Assembly (NCBI RefSeq): GCF_054482525.1
Contig: NZ_JBTHVG010000004.1
Source: a plasmid
Strand: one strand, 5' to 3'
DNA: 64,000 nt
The stretch's first letter is position 1; each line of letters starts with the position of its first letter. Below the pieces are notes generated by a model. The model searched no databases and was not told the DNA's origin. It worked only from the letters and a program-made list of their open reading frames with translations. This document shows positions 1-12,501 of this stretch, one piece after another. The position numbers and the translations under genes are program-made.

Positions 1-655
1 AGAGCGCACGCTGGCAGTCCAGGCGGCACTCATGCAGCAGCCGGACAAATCTCTGGCACTGCTGGCATGGACGCTCTGCCTGAATGTGTTTGGCAGCGGG
101 GCGTACAGTAAACCAGCACAAATCAGCCTGGAATGTGAACATTACTCGCTGACCAGCGATGCGCCATCGGGGAAGGAAGGTGCCGCATTCATGGCGCTGA
201 TGGCAGAAAAAGCCCGTCTTGCTGCCCTGTTACCGGAGGGATGGTCACGGGACATGACGACATTCCTGTCACTCAGTCAGGAGGTGCTGTTATCCCTGCT
301 CAGCTTCTGCACTGCGTGCAGCATCCACGGTGTTCAGACCCGTGAGTATGGTCACACGTCACGCAGTCCGCTGGACTCGCTGGAAACCGCTATCGGCTTT
401 CACATGCGCGACTGGTGGCAGCCGACAAAAGCAAACTTCTTCGGACACCTGAAAAAGCCGCAGATTATCGCAGCCCTGAATGAGGCAGGACTGTCCGGTG
501 CCGCACGGGACGCGGAGAAGATGAAGAAAGGCGATGCCGCTGAACATGCAGAGTTCCATATGAAAGACAACCGCTGGGTGCCTGGCTGGATGTGTTCACC
601 ACGTCCACAGACGGATGCCACTGAACGCGCCGATAACCTGGCTGATGCCGCCTGA
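1..655 (+). CDS. C-terminal part of a large conserved leading-region protein, probably ParB-like nuclease-domain family (as found upstream of psiB in F/IncI plasmids). The N-terminus lies outside the window.
   Basis: The reading frame is open from base 2 with no stop until 655. It sits immediately upstream of psiB, where IncI/F plasmids carry a ParB-like gene. No catalytic domain is visible in this fragment, so the family assignment is tentative. Confidence 0.4.
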   Translation, partial: ERTLAVQAALMQQPDKSLALLAWTLCLNVFGSGAYSKPAQISLECEHYSLTSDAPSGKEGAAFMALMAEKARLAALLPEGWSRDMTTFLSLSQEVLLSLLSFCTACSIHGVQTREYGHTSRSPLDSLETAIGFHMRDWWQPTKANFFGHLKKPQIIAALNEAGLSGAARDAEKMKKGDAAEHAEFHMKDNRWVPGWMCSPRPQTDATERADNLADAA

Positions 656-706
656 TGAACAACCACACCGCCCCGCCGGAGACGGGGCGGCAGAGGGAGA
701 AATACG

Positions 707-1144
707 ATGATGAATACCGAACTGACACTGAATGCCCTGCAGTCCATGAATGCCCAGGAATATGAAGAAATCCGTGCTGCGGGAAGCGATATGCGCCGTA
801 ATCTCACTCACGAGGTGATGCGTGAAGTGGACGCACCAGCTAACTGGATGATGAACGGAGAGTATGGCAGCGAGTTCGGGGGCTTTTTCCCCGTCCAGGT
901 TCGTTTCACGCCAGCCCACGAACGTTTCCACCTGGCATTATGTTCGCCGGGAGACGTCTCTCAGCTCTGGATGCTGGTTCTGGTGAATGGTGGTGGACAG
1001 CCTTTCGCCGTCGTTCAGGTGCAACATATCTTCACGCCTGTCGCGATCAGTCACACGCTGGCGCTTGCCGCGACACTGGATGCGCAGGGATACAGTGTTA
1101 ACGACATCATCCATATCCTGATGGCAGAAGGAGGTCAGGCATGA
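707..1144 (+). CDS. psiB: PsiB, plasmid SOS-inhibition protein B (145 aa)
   Basis: The protein sequence ([28 protein letters not shown]...[18 protein letters not shown]) matches the well-known PsiB sequence over its whole length. A GAGGGAG ribosome-binding site precedes it and it lies directly 5' of psiA. Confidence 0.9.
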
Positions 1145-1860
1145 GCGCACGTTCACGGGCACTGATCCCCCTCAGCGCAGAACAACAGGCCGCCATGCAG
1201 GCGGTGGCTGTCACAGAACAACGTCGTCGTCAGGGACGCACACTTTCAGCATGGCCTTATGCCACCGCTTTCTTTCGCTGCCTGAATGGCAGTCGCCGGA
1301 TTTCGCTGACCGATCTCCGCTTTTTTGCCCCTGCGCTGACGAAGGAGGAATTTCATGGCAACCGTCTCCTGTGGCTGGCTGCCGTGGATAAACTGATTGA
1401 AAGTTTTGGGGAAGTCTGTGTTCTTCCCCTGCCATCCGATGCGGGGCACCGTCTGTTCCCGTCCGTGCCTTTTCGTGAAGGTGAGCGTCGTCGTCAGAAA
1501 ACCACGCTGACAGAGCAGAAATACAGCCGCCAGCGGGAACGTGAGGCAGAACGACGGGAACTGGAATACCAGACATGTTTTGCTCAGGCGCAGATTGACC
1601 TTGCGTTTCATACTCCCGCCACGGTCGGAAGCTGGTTGTCCCGCTGGTCTGGTGTTGTTGAGGAGCATGATCTGGAAACGATTTTCTGGGGGTGGTGCGG
1701 GCGTTTTCCGTCACTGTCATCATTTGACCGGTTTTTCTGGCAGGAGGAACCACTCTGGCGGCTGATTTTTGAAGCCGGTGAGGCCGGTCGTGGTGCACCG
1801 ATACAGGTACGTGCACTTGAGCAGTGGATGATCCCGAACAAGCTGGAGAACGTAATATGA
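1141..1860 (+). CDS. psiA: PsiA, plasmid SOS-inhibition protein A (239 aa)
   Basis: Typical PsiA length and sequence. Its start overlaps the psiB stop (ATGA), consistent with translational coupling in the psiB-psiA operon of F and IncI1 leading regions. Confidence 0.88.
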
Positions 1861-2453
1861 TGAAATCAGACGAAAAATACCAGGTTCCCGCGTGGATGCG
1901 ACCTCTGTTGCCGTTGCTCTGCAACACCGGGGGGAACGATCCGGAAGAACTGCTGAATGATACAGAAACCACTGCCAGTGCGAATGTTGTCCGTTATGTA
2001 CTGATAGTTGCTGTGCGGTCGCAGGTTGATCTGCTGCAGCTTCTGTACAGGAAAGGGCTGTTGCGCACAGAGATACCAGGTGGCTTTTCACCGGAAGAAG
2101 CGCAGGCACTCCTGGATAATCTGGTGCGCAGCCATATCAGCAAGGCGCTGTCGGGCGAGCGAATGGCAGCCCGTGACAGAAATGCCGATCTGGCCTGGAT
2201 TAGACAGCAACTGGTCGATGCCGCCTGGTTTGTCCGTGCCACACTGGAAGCGCATGGGATGAGCGTCGGAAATGAGAGTCCCCCTGCTCCGCCGGAGACA
2301 ATGCCGGACATACAGACACGGGAACTGGTGATGTTGATCAAGCGACTGGCATCATCGCTGAAAGCGGTGAAACCGGACAGTTGTGTGGTGCGTGAAGCGC
2401 AGGACTGGCTGCGCGACAGAAAACTTGTGGATATCACAGATATTCTCCGGTGA
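1857..2453 (+). CDS. conserved hypothetical leading-region protein downstream of psiA (198 aa from ATG 1857)
   Basis: The ATG overlaps the psiA stop. It is a long ORF with balanced codon usage and no recognisable motif. Confidence 0.55.
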   Translation: MMKSDEKYQVPAWMRPLLPLLCNTGGNDPEELLNDTETTASANVVRYVLIVAVRSQVDLLQLLYRKGLLRTEIPGGFSPEEAQALLDNLVRSHISKALSGERMAARDRNADLAWIRQQLVDAAWFVRATLEAHGMSVGNESPPAPPETMPDIQTRELVMLIKRLASSLKAVKPDSCVVREAQDWLRDRKLVDITDILR

Positions 2454-2499
2454 ACCAGGCATGTATATTTTACGCAGGGACATGCCGGTCATGATCGTT

Positions 2500-2890
2500 T
2501 CGTTCCAGGGGTGGTCTGGAGATCATGCGGTGTGCTCCCTGCTCTCGCCGGAATAAGGACGTCGCCGCCGGCTCCGCTTTTACCCGGCCATGCGGGGCAT
2601 GGCCTTGTGGGTTTTCAGTTATGTGGCCTCAGCGTCGTGTGCGGGCTGTGCCGTGCCTCCATCGTAGCCGGGCTTCTGCGGGCGGGTTGCAAGGTAAGGT
2701 GAACCGCTGCGGTCACCCGGTCCCTCCTTCCCGTCCGCCGTGATTTTCCGGTCGTTCACCCGCTCAGATTTCGCGGTCTCACCCTCCAACTCCCGCCAGC
2801 CGTGTGCGTCAGGCTGCGGCTTCCCTTGCGCCCTTGCAACCCTGCAGGCCCGGCAAAGATGGAGGCACGGCACCGCCCGGTGTCGCAGAA
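2500..2890 (+). promoter_or_regulatory. GC-rich, hairpin-rich non-coding element upstream of ardA; candidate single-strand DNA promoter (ssi/Frpo-type)
   Basis: About 390 bp of non-coding sequence at >65% GC, full of short inverted repeats. It lies directly 5' of ardA, which in ColIb-P9 is known to be expressed early from a single-strand promoter. The secondary structure was not folded here. Confidence 0.4.
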
Positions 2891-2914
2891 CATGTGACTA
2901 TGGAGGATTCGGGA

Positions 2915-3415
2915 ATGTCTGTTGTTGCACCTGCTGTATACGTTGGAACCTGGCACAAATACAACTGTGGAAGCATCGCCGGACGCTGGTTTGACCTGAC
3001 CACGTTTGATGATGAGCGCGACTTTTTCGCCGCCTGCCGTGCTCTTCACCAGGATGAAGCCGATCCTGAACTGATGTTTCAGGATTATGAGGGATTCCCG
3101 GGGAATATGGCCTCTGAATGCCATATCAACTGGGCCTGGGTTGAAGGCTTCCGCCAGGCACGGGATGAAGGCTGCGAAGAGGCTTATCGTCTCTGGGTGG
3201 AGGATACCGGTGAGACGGATTTTGACACCTTCCGCGATGCCTGGTGGGGCGAGGCTGACAGTGAGGAGGCTTTTGCGGTTGAGTTCGCCAGTGATACCGG
3301 CCTGCTGGCTGACGTGCCGGAGACGGTGGCGCTCTATTTTGACTATGAGGCGTATGCGCGGGATTTATTCCTGGACTCCTTCACCTTTATTGACGGTCAT
3401 GTGTTCCGTCGGTGA
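2915..3415 (+). CDS. ardA: ArdA antirestriction protein (type I restriction inhibitor, DNA mimic), 166 aa
   Basis: MSVVAPAVYVGTWHKYNCGSIAGRWFDLTTFDDERDFF... is the canonical ColIb-P9/R64 ArdA. A GGAGGA ribosome-binding site sits 7 nt upstream of ATG 2915; the longer ORF from 2804 is an upstream extension. Confidence 0.92.
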   Translation: MSVVAPAVYVGTWHKYNCGSIAGRWFDLTTFDDERDFFAACRALHQDEADPELMFQDYEGFPGNMASECHINWAWVEGFRQARDEGCEEAYRLWVEDTGETDFDTFRDAWWGEADSEEAFAVEFASDTGLLADVPETVALYFDYEAYARDLFLDSFTFIDGHVFRR

Positions 3416-3770
3416 TTTACTCCCCCGCTCCGGCGGGGGTATGGCCTGCCAGGCCGCCGGAAAACCCTGGCAGGCTTACGCCTGCCTGAAATGCAGGAGG
3501 GCCGCGCCTGCGGCGCTGCCCTTCCTGCCCGTCATGGTGTGAGGCATTTTTCTGTTATGTCGTTTCTGTTGTTCTGATTTCCGGAGGCGGGGACACCTTC
3601 GGCTCCCGGCTGCCTGGCGGCATCCGGTCGTCAGGCCCGACTCCGACAGGCAGCTGCTGGCGCACCCGCCAGTCTCCGCCGAACCCGCTGGCGCGGTTTC
3701 GGGCTGCCGCTACGGTCCGATGTCTGAAAAACCAGGCTTGCAGCGACCGTTCCGGTCGCGCCGCCCCTGT

Positions 3771-4117
3771 CGCGCCGGAAACGGCGCTCCCTGCACACCT
3801 GACGGTGTGTAAGGCCACTGCGCCTGATGGCGCAGTCAACCCTTCCGCCGCCACCCCTGCGGCCTGTTTCCCGCTGTGGACTTTCCGGGGGCTGGAGTAA
3901 CCACATCCCGTTTCAGCAGTCCAGGGGAAGATATACCGTCCACAAAATTTTTAGCCATAAACCCGGCAAAAAATTTTGCGTCCGCCCCCGGACAGCTGCC
4001 CCGTGACGTGGTGACGGACGCCCCATCGGAAAGGTCCACTGCGGGGAGAAACCCCGAAGAAGTGGACGGCAGAAGGGGCTTTCGCCCCTCCGGGGAGCAA
4101 CCGGTCGGCCCGGCGAC
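3771..4117 (+). promoter_or_regulatory. Frpo/ssi-like single-strand promoter element, repeat copy A (about 85% identical to 6636..6992)
   Basis: GC-rich non-coding block with long imperfect inverted repeats (e.g. ctccctgcacacctgacggtgtgtaagg, ccccgtgacgtggtgacggacgcccc). It ends 25 bp before the ribosome-binding site of ORF 4144, is on the strand expected for leading-strand ssDNA transcription toward oriT, and is repeated at 6636..6992. Confidence 0.5.
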
Positions 4118-4143
4118 CTGATTCAGCAGAAGGAGACGTTTTC

Positions 4144-4578
4144 ATGACTGTCAGCAGCACGATTTCCGTTTTTTGCCGCGACGGGGTGTTCCGTACCGTT
4201 TACTGCCACCTGCACGGTGAGCCGACCTGGAACGGTCGCATCCTGCATACCCACTATGCCACCGGTCAGCAGGCCGAAGCCCTGGTTGAACACGGTGATA
4301 TCCGTTGCCTCGGTCCCCGTTGCGACAAACCCGCCGGGCATACGCTTCAGAACCCGGTGGACGGTGTGACGGCTTATTACGGACGTGACAGTGGTTTCCG
4401 GATGGACAGTGAGGCGCGTGAGTACCGTTCTTTCAGGGAGGCTATTGCCACTGAAAGCACTGAAGAGGTGCGCTTCCATTATGTGTTCATCGACGGCTAC
4501 TGGAAGGTGATGTACCGCACGCCGGAAGGCTGGAAGATGAAAGCGCTCGCGCTGGCACTGCGTCGCTGTCCGAAATGA
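4144..4578 (+). CDS. hypothetical protein (144 aa) directly downstream of Frpo-like element A
   Basis: GAAGGAG ribosome-binding site 8 nt before the ATG. Clean ORF (MTVSSTISVFCRDGVFRTVYCHLHGEPTWNG...) with no motif I can name. Confidence 0.6.
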   Translation: MTVSSTISVFCRDGVFRTVYCHLHGEPTWNGRILHTHYATGQQAEALVEHGDIRCLGPRCDKPAGHTLQNPVDGVTAYYGRDSGFRMDSEAREYRSFREAIATESTEEVRFHYVFIDGYWKVMYRTPEGWKMKALALALRRCPK

Positions 4579-4670
4579 AAAAAGGCAGGGCGATAAACCC
4601 TGCCTCTCTCCGCCGGCGCTTCCCCGCCAGGAAGTCCGGCATCTCAATCACTATCTATGGAGATTATGCC

Positions 4671-4937
4671 ATGAGACCATCAATTATCTTCGCAACCGCC
4701 GAGTATGTAAAGCGTCTGCGTGAAGAGTGCCTGCGGGAGAATAAACCCCTGCACCGCCATACCCGCTTCAGACGTCAGGAGCTGGCACAGGATGAGATTA
4801 ACCCGGACGTCCTGGCGATGAGCGGCCATATCGCCAGACGCTGCAGTGAGCAGAAGCGGGTGCGTATCCCCGCTATGAAAGTCAGCGAATGGGGCCACCT
4901 GCTCCGCGCGCTTGAAATTGAGCGGGTCTGCCACTGA
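4671..4937 (+). CDS. hypothetical small protein (88 aa)
   Basis: GGAG ribosome-binding site before ATG 4671 (MRPSIIFATAEYVKRLREECL...). The longer ORF from 4575 lacks a ribosome-binding site. Confidence 0.5.
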   Translation: MRPSIIFATAEYVKRLREECLRENKPLHRHTRFRRQELAQDEINPDVLAMSGHIARRCSEQKRVRIPAMKVSEWGHLLRALEIERVCH

Positions 4938-5001
4938 TTAACCCTTGCCGTCTGCCTGTGCAGGCGGCAGGATACGTTCAGACATCTCACCAGGAGGAAC
5001 C

Positions 5002-5892
5002 GTGAGTAAGAAGAAAACCACCACGACGCCCACGCCGCATGATGCCGCGTTCCGGTCGTTCCTGGCGAATCCCGACGTCGCCAGAGATTTTCTGGAACTG
5101 CATCTTCCGGCGGAGTACCGGCAGTTGTGCGACCTGTCCACGCTGAAGCTGGAACCCGCCACCTTTGTTGAGCCGGACCTGCATCAGTACGCCAGCGATA
5201 TCCTCTGGAGTGTGAAAACCACCGGGGGTGAAGACGGCTATGTTTATACGCTCATCGAGCACCAGAGCACCGAAAATCTGTACATGCCTTTCCGCATGTT
5301 ACGTTACAGTGTGGCGGCGATGCAGAGACATCTGGAGCAGCACAAAACGTTGCCACTGGTGATTCCTGTGCTGTTCTATCATGGTGAGCGCAGCCCGTAC
5401 CCGTACAGCATGAACTGGCTGGACTGTTTTGAGAATCCGGCACTTGCGGCTAAAATATACACAAAGCCGTTTCCGCTGGTTGATATCACTGTCGTTGATG
5501 ACAATGAAATCATGAACCATCGCCGGATGGCCGCACTGACGCTGCTGATGAAGCATATCCGCCATCGTGACATGATGGATCTGCTGGACAAACTCCCGCA
5601 GGTCATGGTGGAAATTTCAGACGAGCAGGTGCGTGTTCTGATTCATTACATCGTTAACGCAGGGGACTCTGTATCACCGGAATTTATGCGGGCGCTGGCT
5701 GAGCGTCTGCCGCAGCATGAGGATAAACTGATGACTATCGCAGAACGTCTTGAGCAAAAAGGTCGCCAGGAAGGAGCGCTTGAAAAAGCCCTGGCTATTG
5801 CGTGCCAGCTTCAGAAAATGGGGATGACGCCGGAGCAGATTAAGCAGGCTACCGGACTTTCCGAAGCTGAACTGAAAAAAATCATTCACTGA
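5002..5892 (+). CDS. Rpn-family recombination-promoting nuclease (YhgA-like, PD-(D/E)XK, 'transposase_31' family), 296 aa
   Basis: An AGGAGG ribosome-binding site precedes a GTG start at 5002. The N-terminus (TPHDAAFRSFLANPDVARDFLELHLP), the ...EHQS... core and the C-terminal helical tail (ERLEQKGRQEG...MGMTPEQIKQATGLSEAELKKI) are characteristic of E. coli RpnA-E. Confidence 0.8.
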   Translation: MSKKKTTTTPTPHDAAFRSFLANPDVARDFLELHLPAEYRQLCDLSTLKLEPATFVEPDLHQYASDILWSVKTTGGEDGYVYTLIEHQSTENLYMPFRMLRYSVAAMQRHLEQHKTLPLVIPVLFYHGERSPYPYSMNWLDCFENPALAAKIYTKPFPLVDITVVDDNEIMNHRRMAALTLLMKHIRHRDMMDLLDKLPQVMVEISDEQVRVLIHYIVNAGDSVSPEFMRALAERLPQHEDKLMTIAERLEQKGRQEGALEKALAIACQLQKMGMTPEQIKQATGLSEAELKKIIH

Positions 5893-5905
5893 TGAGAGCA
5901 TCACA

Positions 5906-5930
5906 GCCCGGCAAAATGCCGGGCTTTTTT
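5906..5930 (+). terminator. rho-independent terminator after rpn
   Basis: Hairpin agcccggc-aaaat-gccgggct followed by TTTTTT. Confidence 0.6.
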
Positions 5931-5954
5931 GTCAGCAGGAGCAGAGAAAACAGT

Positions 5955-6149
5955 ATGACGCTTGCAGAACGTCTTATACAGAAAGGTTTCGACGAAGGTT
6001 TTAAAGAAGGTTTTAAGAAAGGTGCGCTTGAAGTGGCGCGGGAAGCAGCCTGCCGGCTGCGGGATATGGGCTGGACGCCGGAACGGATTCAGGAGGCGAC
6101 CGGACTTTCCGGTGAAGAACTGAAAAAGCTGTTTCCTGATGAGCAGTAG
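5955..6149 (+). CDS. small protein (64 aa) equivalent to the Rpn C-terminal domain only (ypaA/RpnS-like)
   Basis: MTLAERLIQKGFDEGFKEG...DMGWTPERIQEATGLSGEELKKLF is collinear with the last ~60 aa of the upstream Rpn (MTIAERLEQKGRQEG...KMGMTPEQIKQATGLSEAELKKII). An alternative start at ATG 5892 overlaps the rpn stop (TGATG) but would read through the terminator hairpin. Confidence 0.5.
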   Translation: MTLAERLIQKGFDEGFKEGFKKGALEVAREAACRLRDMGWTPERIQEATGLSGEELKKLFPDEQ

Positions 6150-6179
6150 CCTGACATTCTGCCAGGCTGTGAATCACGC

Positions 6180-6431
6180 TCACACATTCCCTGCCGTTTC
6201 CCCCAGTTCATTTTCCAGACGCCTGATGATATCTGCCTTGCGCATCCCCTGCATGTGAGGCAGCAGGTCACGGACTGAAAGTGCCTGGGTGGTCCTCCAG
6301 ACGGTGACGTCCACCTGTTCCGCATTTTCCCAGGCGTGCCATGTTCTCTGCGTCACGCCAAATTCTCTGGCCGCTTTTTCGCGTGACCATAGCATGCTTT
6401 TTCGCCAGATTCGCAGTTCCCAGCCGGTCAT
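6180..6431 (-). CDS. XRE-family helix-turn-helix transcriptional regulator (83 aa)
   Basis: The HTH signature (...AAREFGVTQRTWHAWENAEQ...) is typical of Cro/CI-type repressors. It is the only minus-strand gene inside the leading-region block. Confidence 0.6.
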   Translation of the reverse strand: MTGWELRIWRKSMLWSREKAAREFGVTQRTWHAWENAEQVDVTVWRTTQALSVRDLLPHMQGMRKADIIRRLENELGETAGNV

Positions 6432-6447
6432 AAAACACCTTTGAAAA

Positions 6448-6531
6448 AGTGAAAAAACTTCACTTTATTTTATCATCACAATTGCCAAATCAGCGCGATA
6501 AATAAGTGTAAAAAAGTGAAGAAATTTCACT
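6448..6531. promoter_or_regulatory. two palindromic operator-like sites AGTGAA-N5-TTCACT (6448..6464 and 6515..6531) in the promoter region of the XRE gene
   Basis: Both are perfect hexamer palindromes with 5-bp spacers, 67 bp apart, in an AT-rich stretch immediately upstream of the minus-strand HTH gene start. Confidence 0.35.
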
Positions 6532-6635
6532 TTTTTTGTTTGTAAGTGTCGTGCGGTTTTCTCTGTTTTCACCTGTGCGGGAGTGGTGTGCCAGTGACCA
6601 CCACATGCCATTGTTGTGCCGTCGTTTTTCTTCAG

Positions 6636-6992
6636 TCGCGCCGGATGCGGCGCTCCCTGCACACCTTACGGTGTGTAAGGCCACTGCGCCTGATGGCGCA
6701 GCTGTCTCTTGCCTGTCTGCCGCCGCACTGCGGCCTGTTCTCCGCAGACGGACTTTCCGGGGGTACATACACGACCACATCCCGTTTCAGTCGTCCAGGG
6801 GAGAGATGTACCAGCCACAAAACTTTTTGCCGCTGGCGTCAAAAACTTTTGCGTCTGCCCCCGGACAACTGCCCCGTGACGTGGTGAGCGTCCCCCGTCG
6901 GAAAGGTCCACTGCGGGGAAATACCCTAAGACCCGGACGGCAGAAGGAGCTTCGCTCCTCCGGGAAATGACCTGGCTGACCCGGCAGTCGTG
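6636..6992 (+). promoter_or_regulatory. Frpo/ssi-like single-strand promoter element, repeat copy B
   Basis: About 85% identical to 3771..4117 in several long patches. It ends just before the ribosome-binding site (AGGAG) of the DUF4942-like gene at 7012. Confidence 0.5.
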
Positions 6993-7011
6993 ACGATGAG
7001 GAGACAATGTG

Positions 7012-7860
7012 ATGAATCAGACTTTACCCACTGCTGACCTGAATACTGCCGGCACGACAGATGTTATTCCGTCTGTGGCTATCGACCGCATCATCGCGCA
7101 GCGTAACGAAGGTATTGCACTATTCATGCAGGCGATGGAATGCCTGGCGACAGCGCGCAGGATTCTGCTCGATGCGTCAGGTGATATTTTTCTTTACGGG
7201 TTTGAAGACTGCGTGACTGATTCCGTTCGTCGCATGGATAAGCCGGAAGAAGCGAAAAGGAATATCACCCGTCTTGCCGACCGGAAAATCTGGGACCGCC
7301 TGATGACAGATACGGGCATGTACACCTTCATGAGTTCATGCCAGCGTGATGAGTGGAACAGCCAGCTGATGAGCGACACCTGTCCTGAAATCACCCTGGA
7401 CAATGTACTGGCAACATTCCGCCATCTTAATACCAGCAAGATGCAGACGTTTGAACAGGGACTGATTGATGTCTACCGGAAATTGTCATGGGATTACAGA
7501 ACCAATAATCCCTGCCGTCTGGGCAAGAAAATCATTATTGAAAACATGCTGTACCGCTGGAGTAACGGGCGTGTGACGCTGGACTGCAGCGGACGGGAGG
7601 CACTGGATGACCTGGTACGTCCTTTTTATCTGCTGGAGGGGCGAAACGTTCCTGACTTCCGGAGCAGCATCGGGGCGCAGTATGGTGAATTTCTCGGGAA
7701 CGGCGACAACGTCGGTAAGCTGTTAGAAGGGGAATATTTTACGGTGCGTGGCTACCAGAAAGGGACCGTACACATTGTCTTTAAGCGTCCTGACCTTGTT
7801 GAAAAACTGAATGATATTATTGCACGGCATTATCCTGGTGCATTGCCGCCACGAGTCTGA
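7012..7860 (+). CDS. conserved plasmid leading-region protein, DUF4942-like (282 aa)
   Basis: AGGAG ribosome-binding site 9 nt before ATG 7012 (a GTG at 7009 is also possible). The size and sequence resemble the DUF4942 proteins commonly annotated between ardA and nikA in IncI1/IncB/O/K plasmids; this is recalled from memory, not searched. Confidence 0.5.
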   Translation: MNQTLPTADLNTAGTTDVIPSVAIDRIIAQRNEGIALFMQAMECLATARRILLDASGDIFLYGFEDCVTDSVRRMDKPEEAKRNITRLADRKIWDRLMTDTGMYTFMSSCQRDEWNSQLMSDTCPEITLDNVLATFRHLNTSKMQTFEQGLIDVYRKLSWDYRTNNPCRLGKKIIIENMLYRWSNGRVTLDCSGREALDDLVRPFYLLEGRNVPDFRSSIGAQYGEFLGNGDNVGKLLEGEYFTVRGYQKGTVHIVFKRPDLVEKLNDIIARHYPGALPPRV

Positions 7861-7868
7861 TTAAACAG

Positions 7869-7900
7869 AAAAGCCCTGGTATTTATGCCGGGGCTTTTTT
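7869..7900. terminator. bidirectional rho-independent terminator
   Basis: Hairpin aaaagccctgg-tatttatg-ccggggctttttttt, with an A-run before and a T-run after. Confidence 0.5.
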
Positions 7901-7945
7901 TTCTGTAATCATCATAATCTCAGAACACGATGTGACATTGTCACA

Positions 7946-8281
7946 TCAATTGTTGTTCATATCGATGCCATCTTTCCTGCCTGAATCTGTCTTTTTAGGT
8001 GCTGTTTTAGAGGAAGAACGGCGGGATGGTTTTTTCGATTCTGCTTCCCGAATAATGTCACGAAGTGCCTTCTCTCCTACTTCATACCCTGCATTTTTAA
8101 GCGTGTCACGAACATCTGCCAGTGTATAACCCTTTGTCCTTACCAGGACAATGATGTCATCACGAATGGCATCAAGAAAATCACGCAATGTTTTCCGTTG
8201 AGCGGTGAGGTCCGGCAATTCCGATAAGGCAGCTTTTGCCAGCTGGATGTCATCATCTGAGTAAAATTTTTTAGAAGCCAT
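7946..8281 (-). CDS. hypothetical basic/acidic small protein (111 aa) next to oriT, transcribed away from oriT
   Basis: GGAGAG ribosome-binding site before ATG 8281 (MASKKFYSDDDIQLAKAAL...). It has a Lys/Ser/Arg-rich C-terminal tail, which may indicate a DNA-binding accessory protein. Confidence 0.5.
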   Translation of the reverse strand: MASKKFYSDDDIQLAKAALSELPDLTAQRKTLRDFLDAIRDDIIVLVRTKGYTLADVRDTLKNAGYEVGEKALRDIIREAESKKPSRRSSSKTAPKKTDSGRKDGIDMNNN

Positions 8282-8399
8282 TGGCACTTTCTCTCCGTTT
8301 CATGTTGAAGTCTGATTTTATCATCAAAAACTGACTCCTGGCAGGGCTGCGCCCTGCTTCTGCCGTCTGCATAAGACTATGATGCACAAAAATAACAGG

Positions 8400-8480
8400 C
8401 TATAATGGCCTGAAAAACGGGACAGGATGTGCAATTGTAATACCGTCACACGCGACGCTATTACAATTGCCATCTGGTCA
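8400..8480 (-). other. oriT: oriT (nic region plus NikA-binding inverted repeat) of IncI1 type
   Basis: Inverted repeat gcaattgtaata...tattacaattgc at 8431..8470. The adjacent minus-strand sequence acatcctgtcccgtttttcagg matches my memory of the R64 oriT nick region. It lies immediately upstream of nikA, and the leading-region genes all point toward it. Confidence 0.7.
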
Positions 8481-8514
8481 GGGCTTCGCCCCGACACCCC
8501 GTAAGGAGCCTGAA

Positions 8515-8847
8515 GTGAGTGATAGTGCGGTAAGAAAGAAAAGTGAGGTACGGCAAAAGACAGTTGTCAGGACACTCAGATTCTCTCCTGTTGAGGATGA
8601 AACCATCAGGAAAAAAGCTGAAGATTCCGGACTTACTGTATCTGCTTACATCCGAAATGCAGCACTGAATAAGCGAATTAACTCCCGTACAGATGATGCT
8701 TTTCTGAAGGAGTTAATGAGACTGGGAAGGATGCAGAAGCATCTGTTTGTTCAGGGAAAAAGAACCGGTGACAAGGAATACGCAGAAGTGCTTGTTGCCA
8801 TAACCGAACTTACAAATACATTGCGTAAACAGTTAATGGAAGGTTGA
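8515..8847 (+). CDS. nikA: NikA, oriT-binding relaxosome accessory protein (110 aa, ribbon-helix-helix)
   Basis: AAGGAG ribosome-binding site and GTG start. VSDSAVRKKSEVRQKTVVRTLRFSPVEDETIRKKAEDSGLTVSAYIRNAAL... matches R64 NikA. Confidence 0.85.
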   Translation: MSDSAVRKKSEVRQKTVVRTLRFSPVEDETIRKKAEDSGLTVSAYIRNAALNKRINSRTDDAFLKELMRLGRMQKHLFVQGKRTGDKEYAEVLVAITELTNTLRKQLMEG

Positions 8848-8857
8848 GGATTCTCCG

Positions 8858-11560
8858 GTGAATGCAGTCATTCCGAAAAAGAGAAGGGACGGCAAGTCTT
8901 CGTTCGAAGACCTGGTATCCTACGTCTCTGTCCGGGATGACATGACCGATGAGGAACTGGATTTATCTTCTTCTTCGCAGGCTGAACAACCGCACCGAAG
9001 CCGTTTCAGTCGCCTTGTTGATTATGCGACACGTCTTCGAAATGAGTCATTCGTGGCGCTGGTTGATGTCATGAAGGACGGCTGCGAATGGGTCAACTTT
9101 TATGGTGTCACCTGCTTTCATAACTGTACTTCTCTTGAAACTGCCGCTGCAGATATGGAGTACATTGCCCGGCAGGCACACTATGCAAAAGATGACACTG
9201 ATCCTGTTTTTCACTACATCCTTTCCTGGCAGTCACATGAAAGCCCGCGTCCGGAACAGATTTATGACAGTGTACGTCATACGCTGAAATCACTCGGCCT
9301 TGCCGACCATCAGTATGTCTCTGCCGTGCATACTGATACAGATAATCTGCACGTCCATGTGGCTGTTAACCGGGTACACCCTGAAACGGGTTATCTGAAC
9401 CGGTTATCATGGAGTCAGGAAAAACTCAGTCGTGCCTGCCGTGAGCTTGAACTGAAGCATGGTTTTGCTCCGGATAACGGTTGCTGGGTCCATGCGCCGG
9501 GAAATCGTATCGTTCGCAAAACTGCCGTTGAACGTGATCGCCAGAACGCTTGGACACGCGGAAAAAAACAAACTTTTCGCGAGTATGTTGCGCAGACAGC
9601 GGTCGCTGGTTTACGCAGTGAACCTGTACATGACTGGTTATCCCTGCATCGTCGTCTTGCTGAAGATGGTTTGTACCTGTCTCAGATGGACGGAAAATTT
9701 CTGGTGATGGATGGCTGGGATCGCAACAGGGAAGGTGTACAGCTTGACTCGTTTGGTCCCTCCTGGTGTGCAGAAAAACTCATGAAAAAAATGGGTGACT
9801 ACACGCCAGTGCCAAAAGACATTTTCAGCCAGGTGGAAGCACCAGGACGCTATAATCCGGACTTCATTGCAGCTGATGTTCGCCCGGAAAAAATCGCTGA
9901 AACAGAAAGTCTGCAGCAGTATGCCTGTCGTCATCTTGGAGAACGTCTGCCGGAAATGGCACGGGAAGGACGGCTGGAAAACTGCCAGGCTATTCACCGC
10001 ACACTGGCTGAAGCGGGATTATGGATGCGTGTTCAGCATGGTCACCTGGTTATCTGTGACGGTTATGATCATAACCAGACTCCCGTTCGTGCTGACAGCG
10101 TATGGTCACTGCTGACGCTCGACAATGTGAATCAACTCGATGGTGGCTGGCAGCCTGTACCAACAGATATTTTCCGCCAGGTTACGCCAACAGAACGCTT
10201 CCGTGGTCGTCGTATGGAGAGCTGTCCTGCGACCGATAAAGAATGGCACCGTATGCGTACAGGTACGGGGCCGCAGGGGGCTATCAAACGCGAACTGTTT
10301 TCTGACAAAGAAAGTCTGTGGGGATACAGCATCAGCCATTGTAGCCCTCAGATTGAAGAAATGATCACACAGGGTGAGTTTACCTGGCAGCGTTGTCATG
10401 AGTTGTTTGCACAACAGGGACTGATGCTACAGAAACAACATCACGGGCTTGTTGTCGTTGATGCCTTTAATCATGAGCAAACGCCGGTGAAGGCCAGCAG
10501 CATTCATCCTGATCTGACTCTGGGGCGTGCAGAGCCACAGGCCGGACCTTTTGTGAGTGCCCCAGCAGATTTGTTTGACAGGGTGCAACCTGAAAGTCGC
10601 TATAACCCGGAGCTGGCTGTCAGTGACAGGTACGGGGTCAGCAGTAAACGTGACCCAATGCTGCGCCGGCAGCGACGTGAAGCCAGAGCTGAGGCCCGTG
10701 CTGACCTGCGTGCCCGCTATCTGGCATGGCGTGAACAATGGCGTAAACCAGATCTGCGTTATGGGGAACGTTGTCGGGAAATTCATCAGGCATGCCGTCT
10801 GCGGAAGTCACACATTCGTGCGCAGTACGATGATCCGGCATTACGTAAGCTGCATTATCACATTGCAGAAGTTCAGCGAATGCAGGCATTGATCAGGCTG
10901 AAAGAAGACATCAGGGATGAGCGGCAGAAACTTATTGCTGACGGGAAGTGGTATCCACCCTCTTACCGTCAGTGGGTCGAAATTCAGGCTGCTCAGGGAG
11001 ACAGGGCTGCTGTATCGCAGCTGAGAGGCTGGGATTATCGCGATCGCCGTAAAGATAAGTCACGCACAACGACAACAGACCGCTGTGTCGTGCTTTGTGA
11101 ACCGGGCGGAACGCCGGTATACGGTAATACCGGTGATCTCGAGGCCCGTTTGCAGAAGAACGGGAGTGTTCGTTTCCGTGACCGTCGGACGGGAGAGTTT
11201 GTCTGTACGGATTATGGTGACAGGGTTGTTTTCCGTAATCACCATGACCGCAATGCGCTGGCAGATAAACTGGATTTGATTGCACCGGTATTATTCGGGC
11301 GTGATCCACGCATGGGTTTTGAACCAGAAGGAAACGACAAACAATTTAACCAGGTCTTTGCTGAAATGGTTGCCTGGCATAATGTGACAGGCCGTACCGG
11401 TCACGAAGACTACAGGATTACGCGACCGGACGTGGATCATCACCGTGAAGGAAGTGAACGCTACTACCGCGATTATATCGCGGCGAACAGCAACGATGAC
11501 GCATCACTGCCTCCGCCGGAGCAGGATAAACTCTGGGAACCGCCTTCTCCGATGAGATGA
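8858..11560 (+). CDS. nikB: NikB relaxase (MOBP family), about 900 aa
   Basis: The size and the N-terminal relaxase region match R64 NikB (HHY..., the HVHVAVNRVHPETG motif containing the His triad). It immediately follows nikA. Confidence 0.9.
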   Translation: MNAVIPKKRRDGKSSFEDLVSYVSVRDDMTDEELDLSSSSQAEQPHRSRFSRLVDYATRLRNESFVALVDVMKDGCEWVNFYGVTCFHNCTSLETAAADMEYIARQAHYAKDDTDPVFHYILSWQSHESPRPEQIYDSVRHTLKSLGLADHQYVSAVHTDTDNLHVHVAVNRVHPETGYLNRLSWSQEKLSRACRELELKHGFAPDNGCWVHAPGNRIVRKTAVERDRQNAWTRGKKQTFREYVAQTAVAGLRSEPVHDWLSLHRRLAEDGLYLSQMDGKFLVMDGWDRNREGVQLDSFGPSWCAEKLMKKMGDYTPVPKDIFSQVEAPGRYNPDFIAADVRPEKIAETESLQQYACRHLGERLPEMAREGRLENCQAIHRTLAEAGLWMRVQHGHLVICDGYDHNQTPVRADSVWSLLTLDNVNQLDGGWQPVPTDIFRQVTPTERFRGRRMESCPATDKEWHRMRTGTGPQGAIKRELFSDKESLWGYSISHCSPQIEEMITQGEFTWQRCHELFAQQGLMLQKQHHGLVVVDAFNHEQTPVKASSIHPDLTLGRAEPQAGPFVSAPADLFDRVQPESRYNPELAVSDRYGVSSKRDPMLRRQRREARAEARADLRARYLAWREQWRKPDLRYGERCREIHQACRLRKSHIRAQYDDPALRKLHYHIAEVQRMQALIRLKEDIRDERQKLIADGKWYPPSYRQWVEIQAAQGDRAAVSQLRGWDYRDRRKDKSRTTTTDRCVVLCEPGGTPVYGNTGDLEARLQKNGSVRFRDRRTGEFVCTDYGDRVVFRNHHDRNALADKLDLIAPVLFGRDPRMGFEPEGNDKQFNQVFAEMVAWHNVTGRTGHEDYRITRPDVDHHREGSERYYRDYIAANSNDDASLPPPEQDKLWEPPSPMR

Positions 11561-11682
11561 CAGATGAAGCTTTATTAGTTTCGTTATAGAATGAAAAAAT
11601 CACCAATATTAAATATGGGTGTGGTGGTAAAAATAAATATGTTAGGCAATGTTAAGTAACTCTATTGACGGAATCATGTTTT

Positions 11683-12501
11683 ATGAGCACTAATCTTGCT
11701 TTTCGTTATGCAAGTGTTGAAACTTTTTTTAAAATGATTGAAAACCAAGAATTATGGTTTACCGATCTTCGGAATATGAATGATCCGGAAGAATACTCGG
11801 CTGGCTATGAAATAGTCAAGAGAATAATAAATGAGGAATTTCCAGATTGCATTAGACTATTAGAAGAAGTATCACCTAATAAGATAGACGAAAATTTTAA
11901 GATATTAATTTGTTGTTTCTGTTCTGATGGAGATCGTTCCAACATGTGGAGCGAGTATGGTGATAATGGCAAAGGCGTTGCTATTGGTTATGATAAGAAT
12001 ATTATAACCCAAAATCATATTTTGGCTCGGTTTGAAGAACATTTTCAACCTATTAGTGGTAGAGTTGTCTTTCATCCTGTTATCTATTCAGAAGAACTGT
12101 TTCGAGAATATGTAAGAAACGCATTGCATGATTATATTAATCGCTCAAGTTTAAATATTAAATATGCACGTGGCATACTTCATGCACATCTTATCAGACT
12201 ATGTTCATTATATAAGAGAGAGAGTTTTGAATGTGAAAATGAGGTCCGAGGACTTATTGAAGTAGATGAACGTACATTCCCACCATACAAACTTGAAAAA
12301 CGTAGTACTGATTACGGAATTGCGTATTATACTAAGGTGAAATTTACCTGTAACAATATTACGGCAATTAGAGAGATTGTGTTGGGGCCTTTATTTGAAC
12401 AATCTGATGAACAGCTTCGGTCAAAATTAGATGATCTAGGGTTAAAGAATATAAAAATTAGACGTTCCATATGTACCTACAATGATGTGGTTAATCTGTA
12501 A
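11683..12501 (+). CDS. DUF2971-like protein (272 aa), AT-rich cargo gene between nikB and trbC
   Basis: About 30% GC against ~50% for the backbone. The N-terminal signature FRYASVETFFKMIENQELWFTDLRNMNDPEEY fits the DUF2971 pattern (YRY-S-E...L...ELWFS...FNDP-E). Its own terminator follows. Confidence 0.55.
   Translation: MSTNLAFRYASVETFFKMIENQELWFTDLRNMNDPEEYSAGYEIVKRIINEEFPDCIRLLEEVSPNKIDENFKILICCFCSDGDRSNMWSEYGDNGKGVAIGYDKNIITQNHILARFEEHFQPISGRVVFHPVIYSEELFREYVRNALHDYINRSSLNIKYARGILHAHLIRLCSLYKRESFECENEVRGLIEVDERTFPPYKLEKRSTDYGIAYYTKVKFTCNNITAIREIVLGPLFEQSDEQLRSKLDDLGLKNIKIRRSICTYNDVVNL

What the first reader, a model, noticed from the sequence alone, without database searches (positions are those of the whole stretch)
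5002..6149. Rpn nuclease followed by a free-standing copy of its own C-terminal domain (rpnE/ypaA-like pair) inside the leading region
The 296-aa protein has the hallmarks of the Rpn/YhgA-like PD-(D/E)XK 'recombination-promoting nuclease' family. A terminator hairpin ends it, and the next ORF (5955..6149, 64 aa) is collinear with the Rpn C-terminal helical tail. Compare MTLAERLIQKGFDEGF...DMGWTPERIQEATGLSGEELKKLF with MTIAERLEQKGRQEG...KMGMTPEQIKQATGLSEAELKKII. This mirrors E. coli rpnE-ypaA. Published work on chromosomal Rpn proteins indicates that the full-length protein is toxic or anti-phage, and that a short C-terminal product antagonises it. On a plasmid leading strand, the mini-protein could therefore be an antitoxin for the cargo Rpn. 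More speculatively, it could be a decoy that neutralises the recipient's own Rpn defence nucleases on entry. An alternative start at ATG 5892 overlaps the rpn stop (TGATG) but would read through the terminator stem.
Basis: partly seen in the sequence, partly recalled or inferred. Interest (0 to 1): 0.7.

Follow-up and report, generated by a model that had tools for sequence, protein, structure and literature searches.

The report
Known plasmid Rpn toxin–antitoxin with spare tail gene
This is the already-published plasmid anti-phage nuclease rpnP2; its proven antidote is made from a start codon inside the gene, and the small gene after it is a diverged spare copy of the tail domain whose job has not been tested.

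Summary
GTG 5002..5892 encodes a 296-aa Rpn/YhgA nuclease. ATG 5955..6149 encodes a 64-aa protein that aligns with the nuclease's last 53 residues (56% identity). A terminator lies between them, about 2.3-3.4 kb from an IncI oriT on the first-entering side.

The locus is not new. Published construct sequences map exactly onto the window and identify it as rpnP2 (Zhong et al., PNAS 2023). There, RpnL is a toxic nuclease, an internally translated RpnS is its antitoxin, and the pair defends against T-even phages. Downstream "RpnSs" genes such as ypaA are described in the same paper.

In 80 related loci the nuclease tail and the small gene carry different repeat types. Their 4-aa repeat numbers vary independently and match in only 2 of 72 loci. 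The published construct cuts the small gene at codon 13 and is still non-toxic.

Related loci show a three-unit array and in-frame fusions, so the small gene is one unit of a tandem tail-cassette array. It is most likely a displaced, non-cognate RpnS, not the neighbour's antitoxin. The decoy idea has no support. Interest is moderate to low.

The parts
3769..4023 (-). Context: ssi/Frpo-like element, a putative single-strand DNA promoter on the transferred strand, upstream of the gene string ygcA-ygdA-rpn-Ss. A second copy lies at 6635-6896.
   Evidence: Direct repeats at 87-96% identity. The minus strand of 3740-4060 folds as a long hairpin, -103 kcal/mol, z = -8.9. The promoter role is inferred from PMC12672017 and was not tested here.
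4702..5001 (+). The 300 bp upstream of rpn that Zhong et al. used as the native promoter region of rpnP2.
   Evidence: gBlock AO591 matches window 4702-5100 with 2 mismatches in 399 nt.
5002..5892 (+). rpnL (rpnP2 allele; ygdB in R64 nomenclature): a 296-aa PD-(D/E)XK Rpn nuclease, the toxin and defence effector. Catalytic residues D14, D66, E86 and Q88 are present.
   Evidence: Pfam and NCBIfam matches. The residues equal those mutated in the published active-site mutant gBlock AO730. RefSeq annotation.
5429..5456 (+). Sigma-70-like promoter match inside rpn (TTGAGA, 16 nt, TAAAAT), 275 nt upstream of the internal start. It could drive an rpnS-only transcript.
   Evidence: Consensus scan only. 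The paper's Fig. 1A legend marks an internal promoter and the iTIS on its rpn gene diagram. Function here is inferred.
5719..5723 (+). Shine-Dalgarno sequence GAGGA of the internal translation start, 7 nt before ATG 5731.
   Evidence: Read from the sequence. The homologous bases are the ones replaced in the published RpnP2L* construct AO714.
5731..5892 (+). rpnS: the internal in-frame gene (M244-H296, 53 aa), cognate antitoxin, tail type A with one GRQE repeat unit at 5764-5775.
   Evidence: Aligns from Met1 of PDB 7TH0 RpnA-S. The repeat number ranges from 0 to 6 in related loci.
5905..5931 (+). Intrinsic terminator hairpin plus T run between rpn and the small gene.
   Evidence: Conserved in related loci, with T runs of 4-7.
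5937..5941 (+). AGGAG motif upstream of the small gene, with a long 13-nt spacer. A weaker GAGA lies at 5944-5947.
   Evidence: Conserved in nearly all intergenic variants; the exception is a GGGG variant in 3 loci. Ribosome binding was not tested.
5955..6149 (+). rpnSs: the free-standing 64-aa RpnS-family gene, tail type B, with three GFxx repeat units at 5988-6023.
   Evidence: pN/pS is 0.28. The repeat number ranges from 0 to 5 in related loci. The AF2 model is helical, and PDB 7TH0 is fold hit rank 2 but not significant.
6137..6167 (+). Degenerate copy of the TGATGAG-plus-hairpin end of a cassette unit. It shows that the whole unit (tail, stop, hairpin) was duplicated.
   Evidence: DNA alignment of five cassette units.

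Best explanation
The locus is rpnP2, the Rpn toxin-antitoxin and anti-phage system of IncI-complex plasmids.

Shown elsewhere for the ECOR13 allele of this same locus:
- Full-length RpnL is a toxic PD-(D/E)XK DNA endonuclease.
- A small RpnS is translated from an internal in-frame start. It binds RpnL through the shared long helix that carries the 4-aa repeats, and it blocks RpnL.
- The pair lowers plaquing by T-even phages.

In this window the internal start is ATG 5731 (M244).

Inferred here:
- The 64-aa ORF is the second unit of a tandem array of tail cassettes. Each unit comprises a tail, a stop codon and a hairpin.
- The ORF is a diverged paralogue (type B) with three repeats, whereas the nuclease's tail is type A with one repeat. 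Under the published length-matching rule it should form its own dimers rather than neutralise the neighbouring RpnL.
- It is best read as a displaced or reserve specificity cassette. Deletion between the conserved 5' ends (ATGACNATYGCAGAACGTCTT) can fuse it in frame to the nuclease domain and change the toxin's tail and its antitoxin together.
- While free-standing, it is an orphan RpnS. It could neutralise only B-tailed RpnL variants with a matching repeat number.
- It would be expressed by read-through of the terminator. This may include the early transcript from the ssi-like single-strand promoter after conjugative entry.
For: Identity with rpnP2:
- The published gBlock AO591 and primer AO619/AO738 map exactly to 4702-5100 and 5973-5994.
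- The N-terminal 133 aa differ only at T6N, apart from the engineered changes.
- Published function.

Internal antitoxin:
- GAGGA, 7 nt, ATG; M244 aligns with Met1 of 7TH0.

Non-cognate status of the small ORF:
- 56% identity and two extra repeats.
- Across 72 type A/type B loci, repeat numbers are equal in 2 (10.4 expected; permutation P 0.001, or 0.006 on unique haplotypes).
- The same non-repeat backbone carries 1-6 repeats in the nuclease tail while the small ORF stays at 2.
- One extra repeat abolishes RpnC-S function.
- The published RpnP2LS construct truncates the small ORF and is still non-toxic.

Cassette array:
- L078 has a type C tail, then a free-standing type A gene, then a free-standing type B gene. 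Its type A protein is identical to the window's internal RpnS except for one extra repeat.
- pS62-1 and a Shigella sonnei protein are in-frame fusions of the nuclease to a type B tail with no small gene.
- The ECOR13-like allele carries a fourth tail type upstream of the same type B gene.
- Whole units align, including stop and hairpin.

Coding status:
- pN/pS is 0.28, and the ORF is intact in almost all loci.
Against: - There is no direct evidence that the small ORF is transcribed past the terminator or translated. Its AGGAG motif sits 13 nt from the ATG.
- The length-matching rule was shown only for RpnC. Pairing between type A and type B tails has never been tested.
- Purifying selection and near-universal retention point to a protein function. 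A mere reserve role does not fully explain them.
- B-tailed nucleases look rare (two fusions seen), so there is little for an orphan type B antitoxin to neutralise.
- The depletion of equal repeat numbers loses significance when only unique repeat combinations are counted, and the loci are not phylogenetically independent.
- Zygotic induction of this operon is inferred, not shown.
Confidence: 0.55

Rival explanations
1. The small protein is a second, trans-acting antitoxin for the neighbouring RpnL. It would buffer the toxin, for example just after entry into a recipient.
For: It belongs to the same fold family and has the same first 11 residues as the cognate RpnS (MT[IL]AERLxQKG). It lies immediately downstream on the same strand and is under purifying selection. 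YpaA is synthesised in E. coli K-12.
Against: Repeat numbers are uncoupled and almost never equal. A one-repeat mismatch abolishes RpnC-S activity. RpnA-S and RpnB-S do not cross-protect. The published construct without an intact small ORF is non-toxic. A terminator separates it from rpn.
Confidence: 0.15
2. The small protein is an anti-defence decoy or anti-addiction factor. Expressed early in the recipient, it would neutralise resident Rpn nucleases, either chromosomal or on a competing IncI plasmid.
For: It lies in the leading region on the strand that can be transcribed from the transferred DNA, downstream of an ssi-like hairpin. Orphan antitoxins are enriched in leading regions (PMC11541004). 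B-tailed RpnL variants do exist.
Against: All 120 closest homologues listed are small proteins of 55-106 aa, none a full-length Rpn, and B-tailed nucleases were seen only twice. Sequence search of the PDB with the small protein did not return RpnA-S 7TH0 even at E<=10, whereas the type A tail did. No phage homologue was found. A repeat-number mismatch would defeat a decoy as well. Entry exclusion and incompatibility limit encounters between IncI plasmids (my own knowledge, not checked here).
Confidence: 0.1
3. The small ORF is an unexpressed evolutionary relic of a tandem duplication. It is kept only because it lies between selected genes or is occasionally recombined back into rpn.
For: A strong terminator lies upstream, no sigma-70-like promoter was found between 5893 and 5955, and the SD spacing is poor. 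RefSeq marks K-12 ypaA as a pseudogene. A few loci carry frameshifts (L033, L055).
Against: pN/pS is 0.28 over 40 alleles. The start, stop and frame are intact in more than 90% of loci despite hypervariable repeats that always change in multiples of 12 nt. The AGGAG motif is conserved. YpaA is detectably synthesised.
Confidence: 0.1
4. The small protein is a DNA-binding regulator with an HTH-like three-helix bundle. It would control rpn or neighbouring leading-region genes rather than bind RpnL.
For: Fold hits of the model are mostly HTH DNA-binding domains such as Hin, DeoR, TrpR and sigma region 4. Zhong et al. note HTH relatedness by HHpred.
Against: All fold hits are non-significant (E>0.8) and the model has only moderate confidence (pLDDT 72). 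No operator-like repeats were looked for or seen. RpnS proteins act by protein-protein binding.
Confidence: 0.07

Closest known systems
RpnP2 L/S of the E. coli ECOR13 plasmid (Zhong et al., PNAS 2023, PMC10400941)
   Same: It is the same locus. The 300 bp upstream is identical apart from base changes inside the gene (2 mismatches in 399 nt). The nuclease domain is the same (T6N only in the first 133 aa), as are the catalytic residues, the internal start position, and the type B small gene downstream.
   Different: From about residue 188 onward the window carries another allele: tail type A with one GRQE repeat, instead of the ECOR13 GIQQ-repeat tail. The downstream small gene was cut off in the published constructs and was not studied.
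rpnE-ypaA (RpnE-Ss) and rpnC-rpnC-Ss of E. coli
   Same: A free-standing homologue of the tail lies immediately downstream on the same strand. It starts with MTIAERL and has a repeat number different from the upstream gene; YpaA has one extra repeat.
   Different: YpaA looks much more like the RpnE tail, by eye roughly four-fifths of residues in the translated sequences (not computed). It sits 12 nt after the stop with a duplicated SD and no terminator, and the paper reports that it clusters with its own upstream tail. Here the identity is 56%, there is a 62-nt spacer with a terminator, and the small gene is a separate cassette type found downstream of three different tail types.
Free-standing RpnS-like small proteins (DUF4351/PF14261 class named by Zhong et al.)
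   Same: They are small helical proteins with variable 4-aa repeats after about 10 residues. Many such representatives were found.
   Different: The window protein does not reach any Pfam threshold in the local library, DUF4351 included.
Orphan toxin-tip/immunity cassette arrays downstream of cdiA and rhs genes (analogy from general knowledge, not tested here)
   Same: Tandem modules share a conserved junction. Displaced modules stay downstream and can be recombined back into the main gene. The specificity regions are hypervariable.
   Different: Here one polypeptide segment is both part of the toxin and the antitoxin. The toxin acts inside the producing cell. No delivery system is involved.
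Orphan antitoxins in plasmid leading regions (Samuel et al., Nature 2024, PMC11541004)
   Same: It is an antitoxin-family gene in the first-entering DNA, on the strand that can be transcribed from the transferred DNA.
   Different: Here the antitoxin-like gene sits beside a complete toxin-antitoxin gene of the same family. No anti-defence activity is known for it.

Membership tests
Rpn / YhgA-like PD-(D/E)XK nucleases | YhgA-like N-terminal domain (PF04754; TIGR01784) | tested here: met
   PF04754 at E 3e-78; TIGR01784 at 177 bits against a cut-off of 52.
Rpn / YhgA-like PD-(D/E)XK nucleases | Catalytic residues of the PD-(D/E)XK site | tested here: met
   D14, D66, E86 and Q88 are present. 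They are exactly the residues changed in the published RpnP2 active-site mutant.
Rpn / YhgA-like PD-(D/E)XK nucleases | DNA endonuclease activity and toxicity | not testable with these tools
   Toxicity is published for the ECOR13 allele of this locus (RpnP2), and toxicity plus in vitro DNA cleavage for RpnA. Neither was measured for this allele.
RpnA orthologue (NCBIfam NF007361 equivalog) | Score above the equivalog cut-off | tested here: not met
   327.9 bits against a cut-off of 583. It is an Rpn family member but not RpnA.
Intragenic RpnS antitoxin | In-frame internal start with an SD at the beginning of the C-terminal domain | tested here: met
   GAGGA 5719-5723, ATG 5731. M244 aligns with residue 1 of 7TH0 RpnA-S. 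The same bases are the ones mutated in the published RpnP2L* construct.
Intragenic RpnS antitoxin | Strain-variable number of 4-aa repeats 8-20 residues after the initiating Met | tested here: met
   (GRQE/GRME) repeats number 0 to 6, starting at residue 12, in 80 loci.
Intragenic RpnS antitoxin | Translation of the small product and neutralisation of RpnL | not testable with these tools
   Published for the ECOR13 allele.
RpnSs (downstream free-standing RpnS, ypaA-like) | Separate ORF homologous to the Rpn C-terminal domain, just downstream on the same strand | tested here: met
   56% identity, E 1e-16. TIGR01784 C-terminal positions 218-273 at E 1.4e-7. It lies 62 nt downstream.
RpnSs (downstream free-standing RpnS, ypaA-like) | Variable 4-aa repeats in the first helix | tested here: met
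   (GFxx) repeats number 0 to 5 or more; period-12 tandem repeat at 5980-6023.
RpnSs (downstream free-standing RpnS, ypaA-like) | Clusters with, and derives from, the tail of its own upstream gene, as reported for RpnC-Ss and RpnE-Ss | tested here: not met
   Type B is a distinct cassette found downstream of type A, C and D tails. Only the type A small gene in L078 equals a current tail.
RpnSs (downstream free-standing RpnS, ypaA-like) | Three-helix RpnS fold | tested here: inconclusive
   The AF2 model is helical with pLDDT 72. 7TH0 is rank 2 with TM 0.68 (target-normalised), but E is 2.2.
RpnSs (downstream free-standing RpnS, ypaA-like) | The protein is synthesised | not testable with these tools
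   Shown only for YpaA. Here only purifying selection (pN/pS 0.28) supports it.
Leading-region early gene | Lies within the first-entering DNA and is coded so that the transferred strand is the template | tested here: met
   The nick region is on the minus strand at 8408-8470 and rpn is on the plus strand 2.3-3.4 kb away.
Leading-region early gene | Transcribed from a single-strand DNA promoter after transfer | tested here: inconclusive
   An ssi-like hairpin lies upstream of the gene string. No expression data are accessible for this operon.

The most novel reading that the evidence does not exclude
The rpnP2 locus of IncI plasmids is a cassette-switching system. A tandem array of tail units, each with its own hypervariable 4-aa repeat tract, would let the plasmid change the specificity of the toxin and its antitoxin together by simple deletion or duplication. 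The displaced units would stay expressed as orphan antitoxins, delivered early in conjugation, that disarm rival IncI plasmids' or residents' Rpn nucleases of the older specificity. That would be an anti-addiction or anti-defence role.
Probability: 0.15. Interest if true: 0.7.

Novelty: new member of a known kind. Interest (0 to 1): 0.35.

Why it matters
The locus is carried by about a quarter of complete E. coli genomes, on IncI-complex plasmids that often carry resistance genes. It sits in the DNA that enters a new host first.

The nuclease and its internal antitoxin are already understood in outline. The downstream small gene is the only untested component.

The population data gathered here make two points. 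First, the tail is a swappable cassette. Second, the small gene's repeat tract evolves independently of its neighbour's. Together these give a concrete, cheap experiment that could show how Rpn specificity diversifies: cross-neutralisation between type A and type B proteins with matched and mismatched repeat numbers. The same experiment would address whether orphan RpnS proteins play a part in competition between plasmids.

If the small gene turns out to be a simple second antitoxin or a relic, the locus is ordinary.

Tried and rejected
- Rfam scan of 1-12000: no match.
- PADLOC: no Rpn model and no relevant hit.
- PHROGs: only generic "transposase" families.
- Pfam at E<=10 for the small protein, the tail and YpaA: nothing above threshold and no DUF4351. 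PF27070, which is listed in precomputed annotations, is not in the local Pfam copy.
- Phage genomes: no homologue of the small protein at E<=0.01. Only a few prophage-like full-length Rpn relatives were found.
- PDB sequence search with the small protein returned IcmE/DotG repeat proteins. I regard this as a compositional match.
- Foldseek against the PDB gave no significant hit.
- Counting type B fusions in PLSDB with a junction query was abandoned. The tool joins nearby pieces into one place, so fused and unfused loci cannot be told apart from the summary counts.
- A protein search with the fused linker plus type B tail returned mostly fragments and no full-length proteins, so it gave no frequency estimate. 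It did reveal one more fusion (P0173).
- The 85-aa reading from ATG 5892 was rejected because the frame is not conserved.
- A Klebsiella IncF Rpn relative has no downstream small gene.
- Expression data for the IncI1 plasmid pESBL could not be read. The per-gene results are in figures and supplements that are not held.
Full report
**What is there**

The window is part of an IncI-complex conjugative plasmid. A near-identical record is typed IncI-gamma/K1, MOBP, MPF_I. In related records the gene order is ssb, psiB, psiA, ardA, ygcA, ygdA, rpn (ygdB), small ORF, ygeA (HTH, opposite strand), DUF4942, yggA, oriT, nikA, nikB.

The minus strand at 8408-8470 carries the IncI1-type inverted repeat and the nick region ATCCTG|T. 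From what is known of P-type nick regions, the minus strand is the transferred strand, and the DNA at lower coordinates enters first. The plus-strand genes therefore use the transferred strand as template.

GTG 5002..5892 encodes a 296-aa protein. It matches PF04754 at E 3e-78 and scores above the cut-off for the NCBIfam Rpn family. ATG 5955..6149 encodes 64 aa that align with Rpn residues 244-294 at 56% identity, E 1e-16. The only gap is 8 residues long. A 9-bp GC-rich hairpin with a T run lies at 5905-5925. RefSeq annotates both ORFs with the same coordinates in sister plasmids.

**The locus is already characterised**

Zhong et al. (PNAS 2023, PMC10400941) showed three things about rpn genes:
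- They encode a toxic full-length nuclease (RpnL).
- They also encode a small antitoxin (RpnS), translated from an internal in-frame start.
- The plasmid gene rpnP2 from E. coli ECOR13 protects against T-even phages.

Their supplementary oligonucleotide table lets the gene be identified:
- The rpnP2 gBlock starts at window 4702 and matches 399 nt with two mismatches.
- The reverse primer of the construct matches 5973-5994 exactly.
- The first 133 residues differ from ECOR13 only at T6N.
- The four residues changed in their active-site mutant are D14, D66, E86 and Q88. All four are intact in the window.

The window's gene is therefore rpnP2. From about residue 188 onward it is a different allele, because the ECOR13 tail has GIQQ repeats.

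The same paper states that RpnS can also be encoded as a separate gene, on chromosomes and on plasmids. It names ypaA as RpnE-Ss, shows that YpaA is synthesised, and notes that such genes can be lost by fusion with the N-terminal domain.

Inside rpn, GAGGA (5719-5723) lies 7 nt before ATG 5731 (M244). This Met aligns with residue 1 of the RpnA-S crystal structure 7TH0. The homologous bases are the ones Zhong et al. replaced to make RpnP2L*, which was strongly toxic unless RpnP2S was present. The cognate antitoxin is therefore the internal 53-aa product, not the downstream ORF.

Their RpnP2LS construct ends 40 nt into the downstream ORF. It is still non-toxic and protective.

**Population analysis**

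I fetched 80 related metagenomic loci and several plasmid loci.

*Repeat tracts.*
- The RpnL tail in most loci is "type A": MTIAERLEQKG, then (RQEG/RMEG) 0-6 times, then ALEKALAIACQLQKMG...
- The downstream ORF is "type B": MT[IL]AERLIQKG, then (FxxG) 0-5 or more times, then ALEVAREAACRLRDMGW...LFPDEQ.
- Both tracts change in steps of 12 nt.

*The two repeat numbers are uncoupled.*
- They are equal in 2 of 72 loci, against 10.4 expected. Permutation P is 0.001, and 0.006 on unique haplotypes. It is not significant when only unique repeat combinations are counted.
- One identical non-repeat backbone carries 1, 3, 4, 5 or 6 repeats in the tail while the small ORF stays at 2.
- The overall correlation is negative (Spearman -0.47). 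I cannot explain this, and it may reflect lineage structure.

*The published rule.* Adding one repeat to RpnC-S abolishes its antitoxin activity unless RpnC-L gets the same repeat. The accompanying commentary states that a mismatch prevents complex formation. By that rule, the window's small protein (three repeats, 56% identity) should not neutralise its neighbour (one repeat).

*Coding status.* The small ORF is nonetheless a real gene. pN/pS is 0.28 over 40 alleles, compared with 0.17 for the tail and 0.04 for the nuclease domain. The frame is intact in almost all loci.

*The alternative start.* The upstream extension from ATG 5892 is open and in frame in only about 50 of 80 loci, because the T run varies in length. 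ATG 5955 is therefore the conserved start.

**Cassette array**

- L078 has RpnL with a third tail type (GIQK/GIQQ repeats). Behind it come a free-standing type A gene and then a free-standing type B gene, each behind its own hairpin.
- The type A protein in L078 is identical to the window's internal RpnS except for one extra repeat.
- Plasmid pS62-1 has the nuclease fused in frame to a type B tail and has no small gene. A Shigella sonnei protein shows a second such fusion with no repeats.
- The ECOR13-like allele has a fourth tail type upstream of a type B gene.
- An alignment of five units shows homology through the stop (TGATGAG) and the hairpin. A degenerate copy of that end lies after the window's small gene. 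A 1-nt indel explains its different C-terminus...LFPDEQ instead of ...IIH.

The locus is thus a nuclease domain followed by one to three tandem tail units. The first unit is fused in frame, and the others are free-standing.

In K-12, rpnE-ypaA is a younger version of the same arrangement. YpaA looks much closer to the RpnE tail (by eye roughly four-fifths of residues; I did not compute this), has a 12-nt spacer, a duplicated SD, no terminator and one extra repeat.

**Expression context**

- An ssi/Frpo-like element at 3769-4023 has a second copy at 6635-6896. It lies upstream of ygcA-ygdA-rpn, and the transferred strand folds there into a long hairpin (-103 kcal/mol, z -8.9).
- In the IncI1 plasmid pESBL, three ssi elements drive strongly induced early operons (PMC12672017). 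I could not read which genes these are. Early induction of rpn and read-through into the small gene are therefore inferences.
- A sigma-70-like match inside rpn at 5429-5456 could give an rpnS-only transcript.

**Tests of the decoy idea**

- The 120 closest homologues of the small protein are all small proteins of 55-106 aa, none a full-length Rpn.
- An exhaustive search of representatives finds many other small RpnS-like proteins and some Rpn C-termini. Nothing is closer to type B than type A tails and a 71-aa small protein, at about 60% identity.
- Phage genomes hold no homologue.
- Sequence search of the PDB with the small protein does not return RpnA-S (7TH0), whereas the type A tail does.
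- The AF2 model is helical (pLDDT 72). Its second-best PDB fold match is RpnA-S, but no fold match is significant.

The decoy reading is therefore unsupported, though not excluded.

**Verdict**

- The nuclease and its internal antitoxin are already known.
- The small gene is a new, more diverged member of the known RpnSs class. It is best read as a displaced, non-cognate tail cassette.
- The locus is very common: 2039 PLSDB plasmids and 1378 of 5426 complete E. coli genomes.
- The cassette view and the uncoupled repeats are useful leads, not a surprise to specialists.

Noticed in passing
window 3769-4023 and 6635-6896: Two copies of an ssi/Frpo-like element, 87-96% identical in their conserved blocks, lie upstream of ygcA and of the DUF4942 gene. 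The transferred (minus) strand of the first copy folds into a ~190-nt hairpin at -103 kcal/mol, z -8.9.
   Followed up: partly
window 8408-8470: IncI1/R64-type oriT core: an inverted repeat plus the nick region ATCCTG|T, read on the minus strand. It fixes the direction of transfer.
   Followed up: partly
L002-L081 (related loci), window 5764-5775 and 5988-6023: Repeat numbers in the RpnL tail and in the small gene are negatively correlated (Spearman -0.47), and equal numbers are rare (2 of 72). Lineage structure may explain this, but selection against equal lengths is not excluded.
   Followed up: partly
L078 1148-2677: A three-cassette array: RpnL with a GIQ-repeat tail, then a free-standing type A RpnS, then a free-standing type B RpnS, each unit ending in its own hairpin.
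   Followed up: yes
L082 1772-2695 (plasmid pS62-1, LC567059.1); protein P0173 (Shigella sonnei): In-frame fusions of the Rpn nuclease domain to a type B tail, with no free-standing small gene. pS62-1 also has an extra gene (ccgAII) inserted just upstream of rpn.
   Followed up: partly
window 5429-5456: A sigma-70-like promoter match (TTGAGA, 16 nt, TAAAAT; 10 of 12) lies inside rpn, 275 nt upstream of the internal RpnS start.
   Followed up: no
window 6137-6167: A degenerate copy of the TGATGAG-plus-hairpin cassette end lies after the small gene. A 1-nt indel relative to type A gives the ...LFPDEQ C-terminus.
   Followed up: partly
window 6180-6431 (minus strand): An 83-aa HTH protein (ygeA in R64 nomenclature) is convergent with the small gene, 30 nt away. 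It stays adjacent even when the small gene is fused into rpn. Its relation to the Rpn system is unknown.
   Followed up: no
window 5955-6146 (protein): phmmer matches the small protein to the repeat region of Legionella IcmE/DotG (E 5e-9, many weak stretches). This is probably a compositional match between short helical repeats.
   Followed up: no
proteins: The precomputed Pfam accession PF27070.1 is attached both to the small-gene clusters and to C-terminal fragments of Rpn proteins. The family is not in the local Pfam copy, so I could not check its name or threshold.
   Followed up: no
window 7009-7860: A DUF4942 protein is the first sizeable plus-strand gene after oriT, behind the second ssi-like element. 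I could not settle whether it corresponds to the ssDNA methyltransferase M.EcoGIX of pESBL.
   Followed up: no
L085 2446-3396 (Klebsiella pneumoniae IncF plasmid pKPC-5502): An Rpn relative shares the linker region with rpnP2 (about 79% nt identity). It has another tail and no downstream small gene, and it sits among recombinase, IS and restriction genes rather than in a leading region.
   Followed up: no
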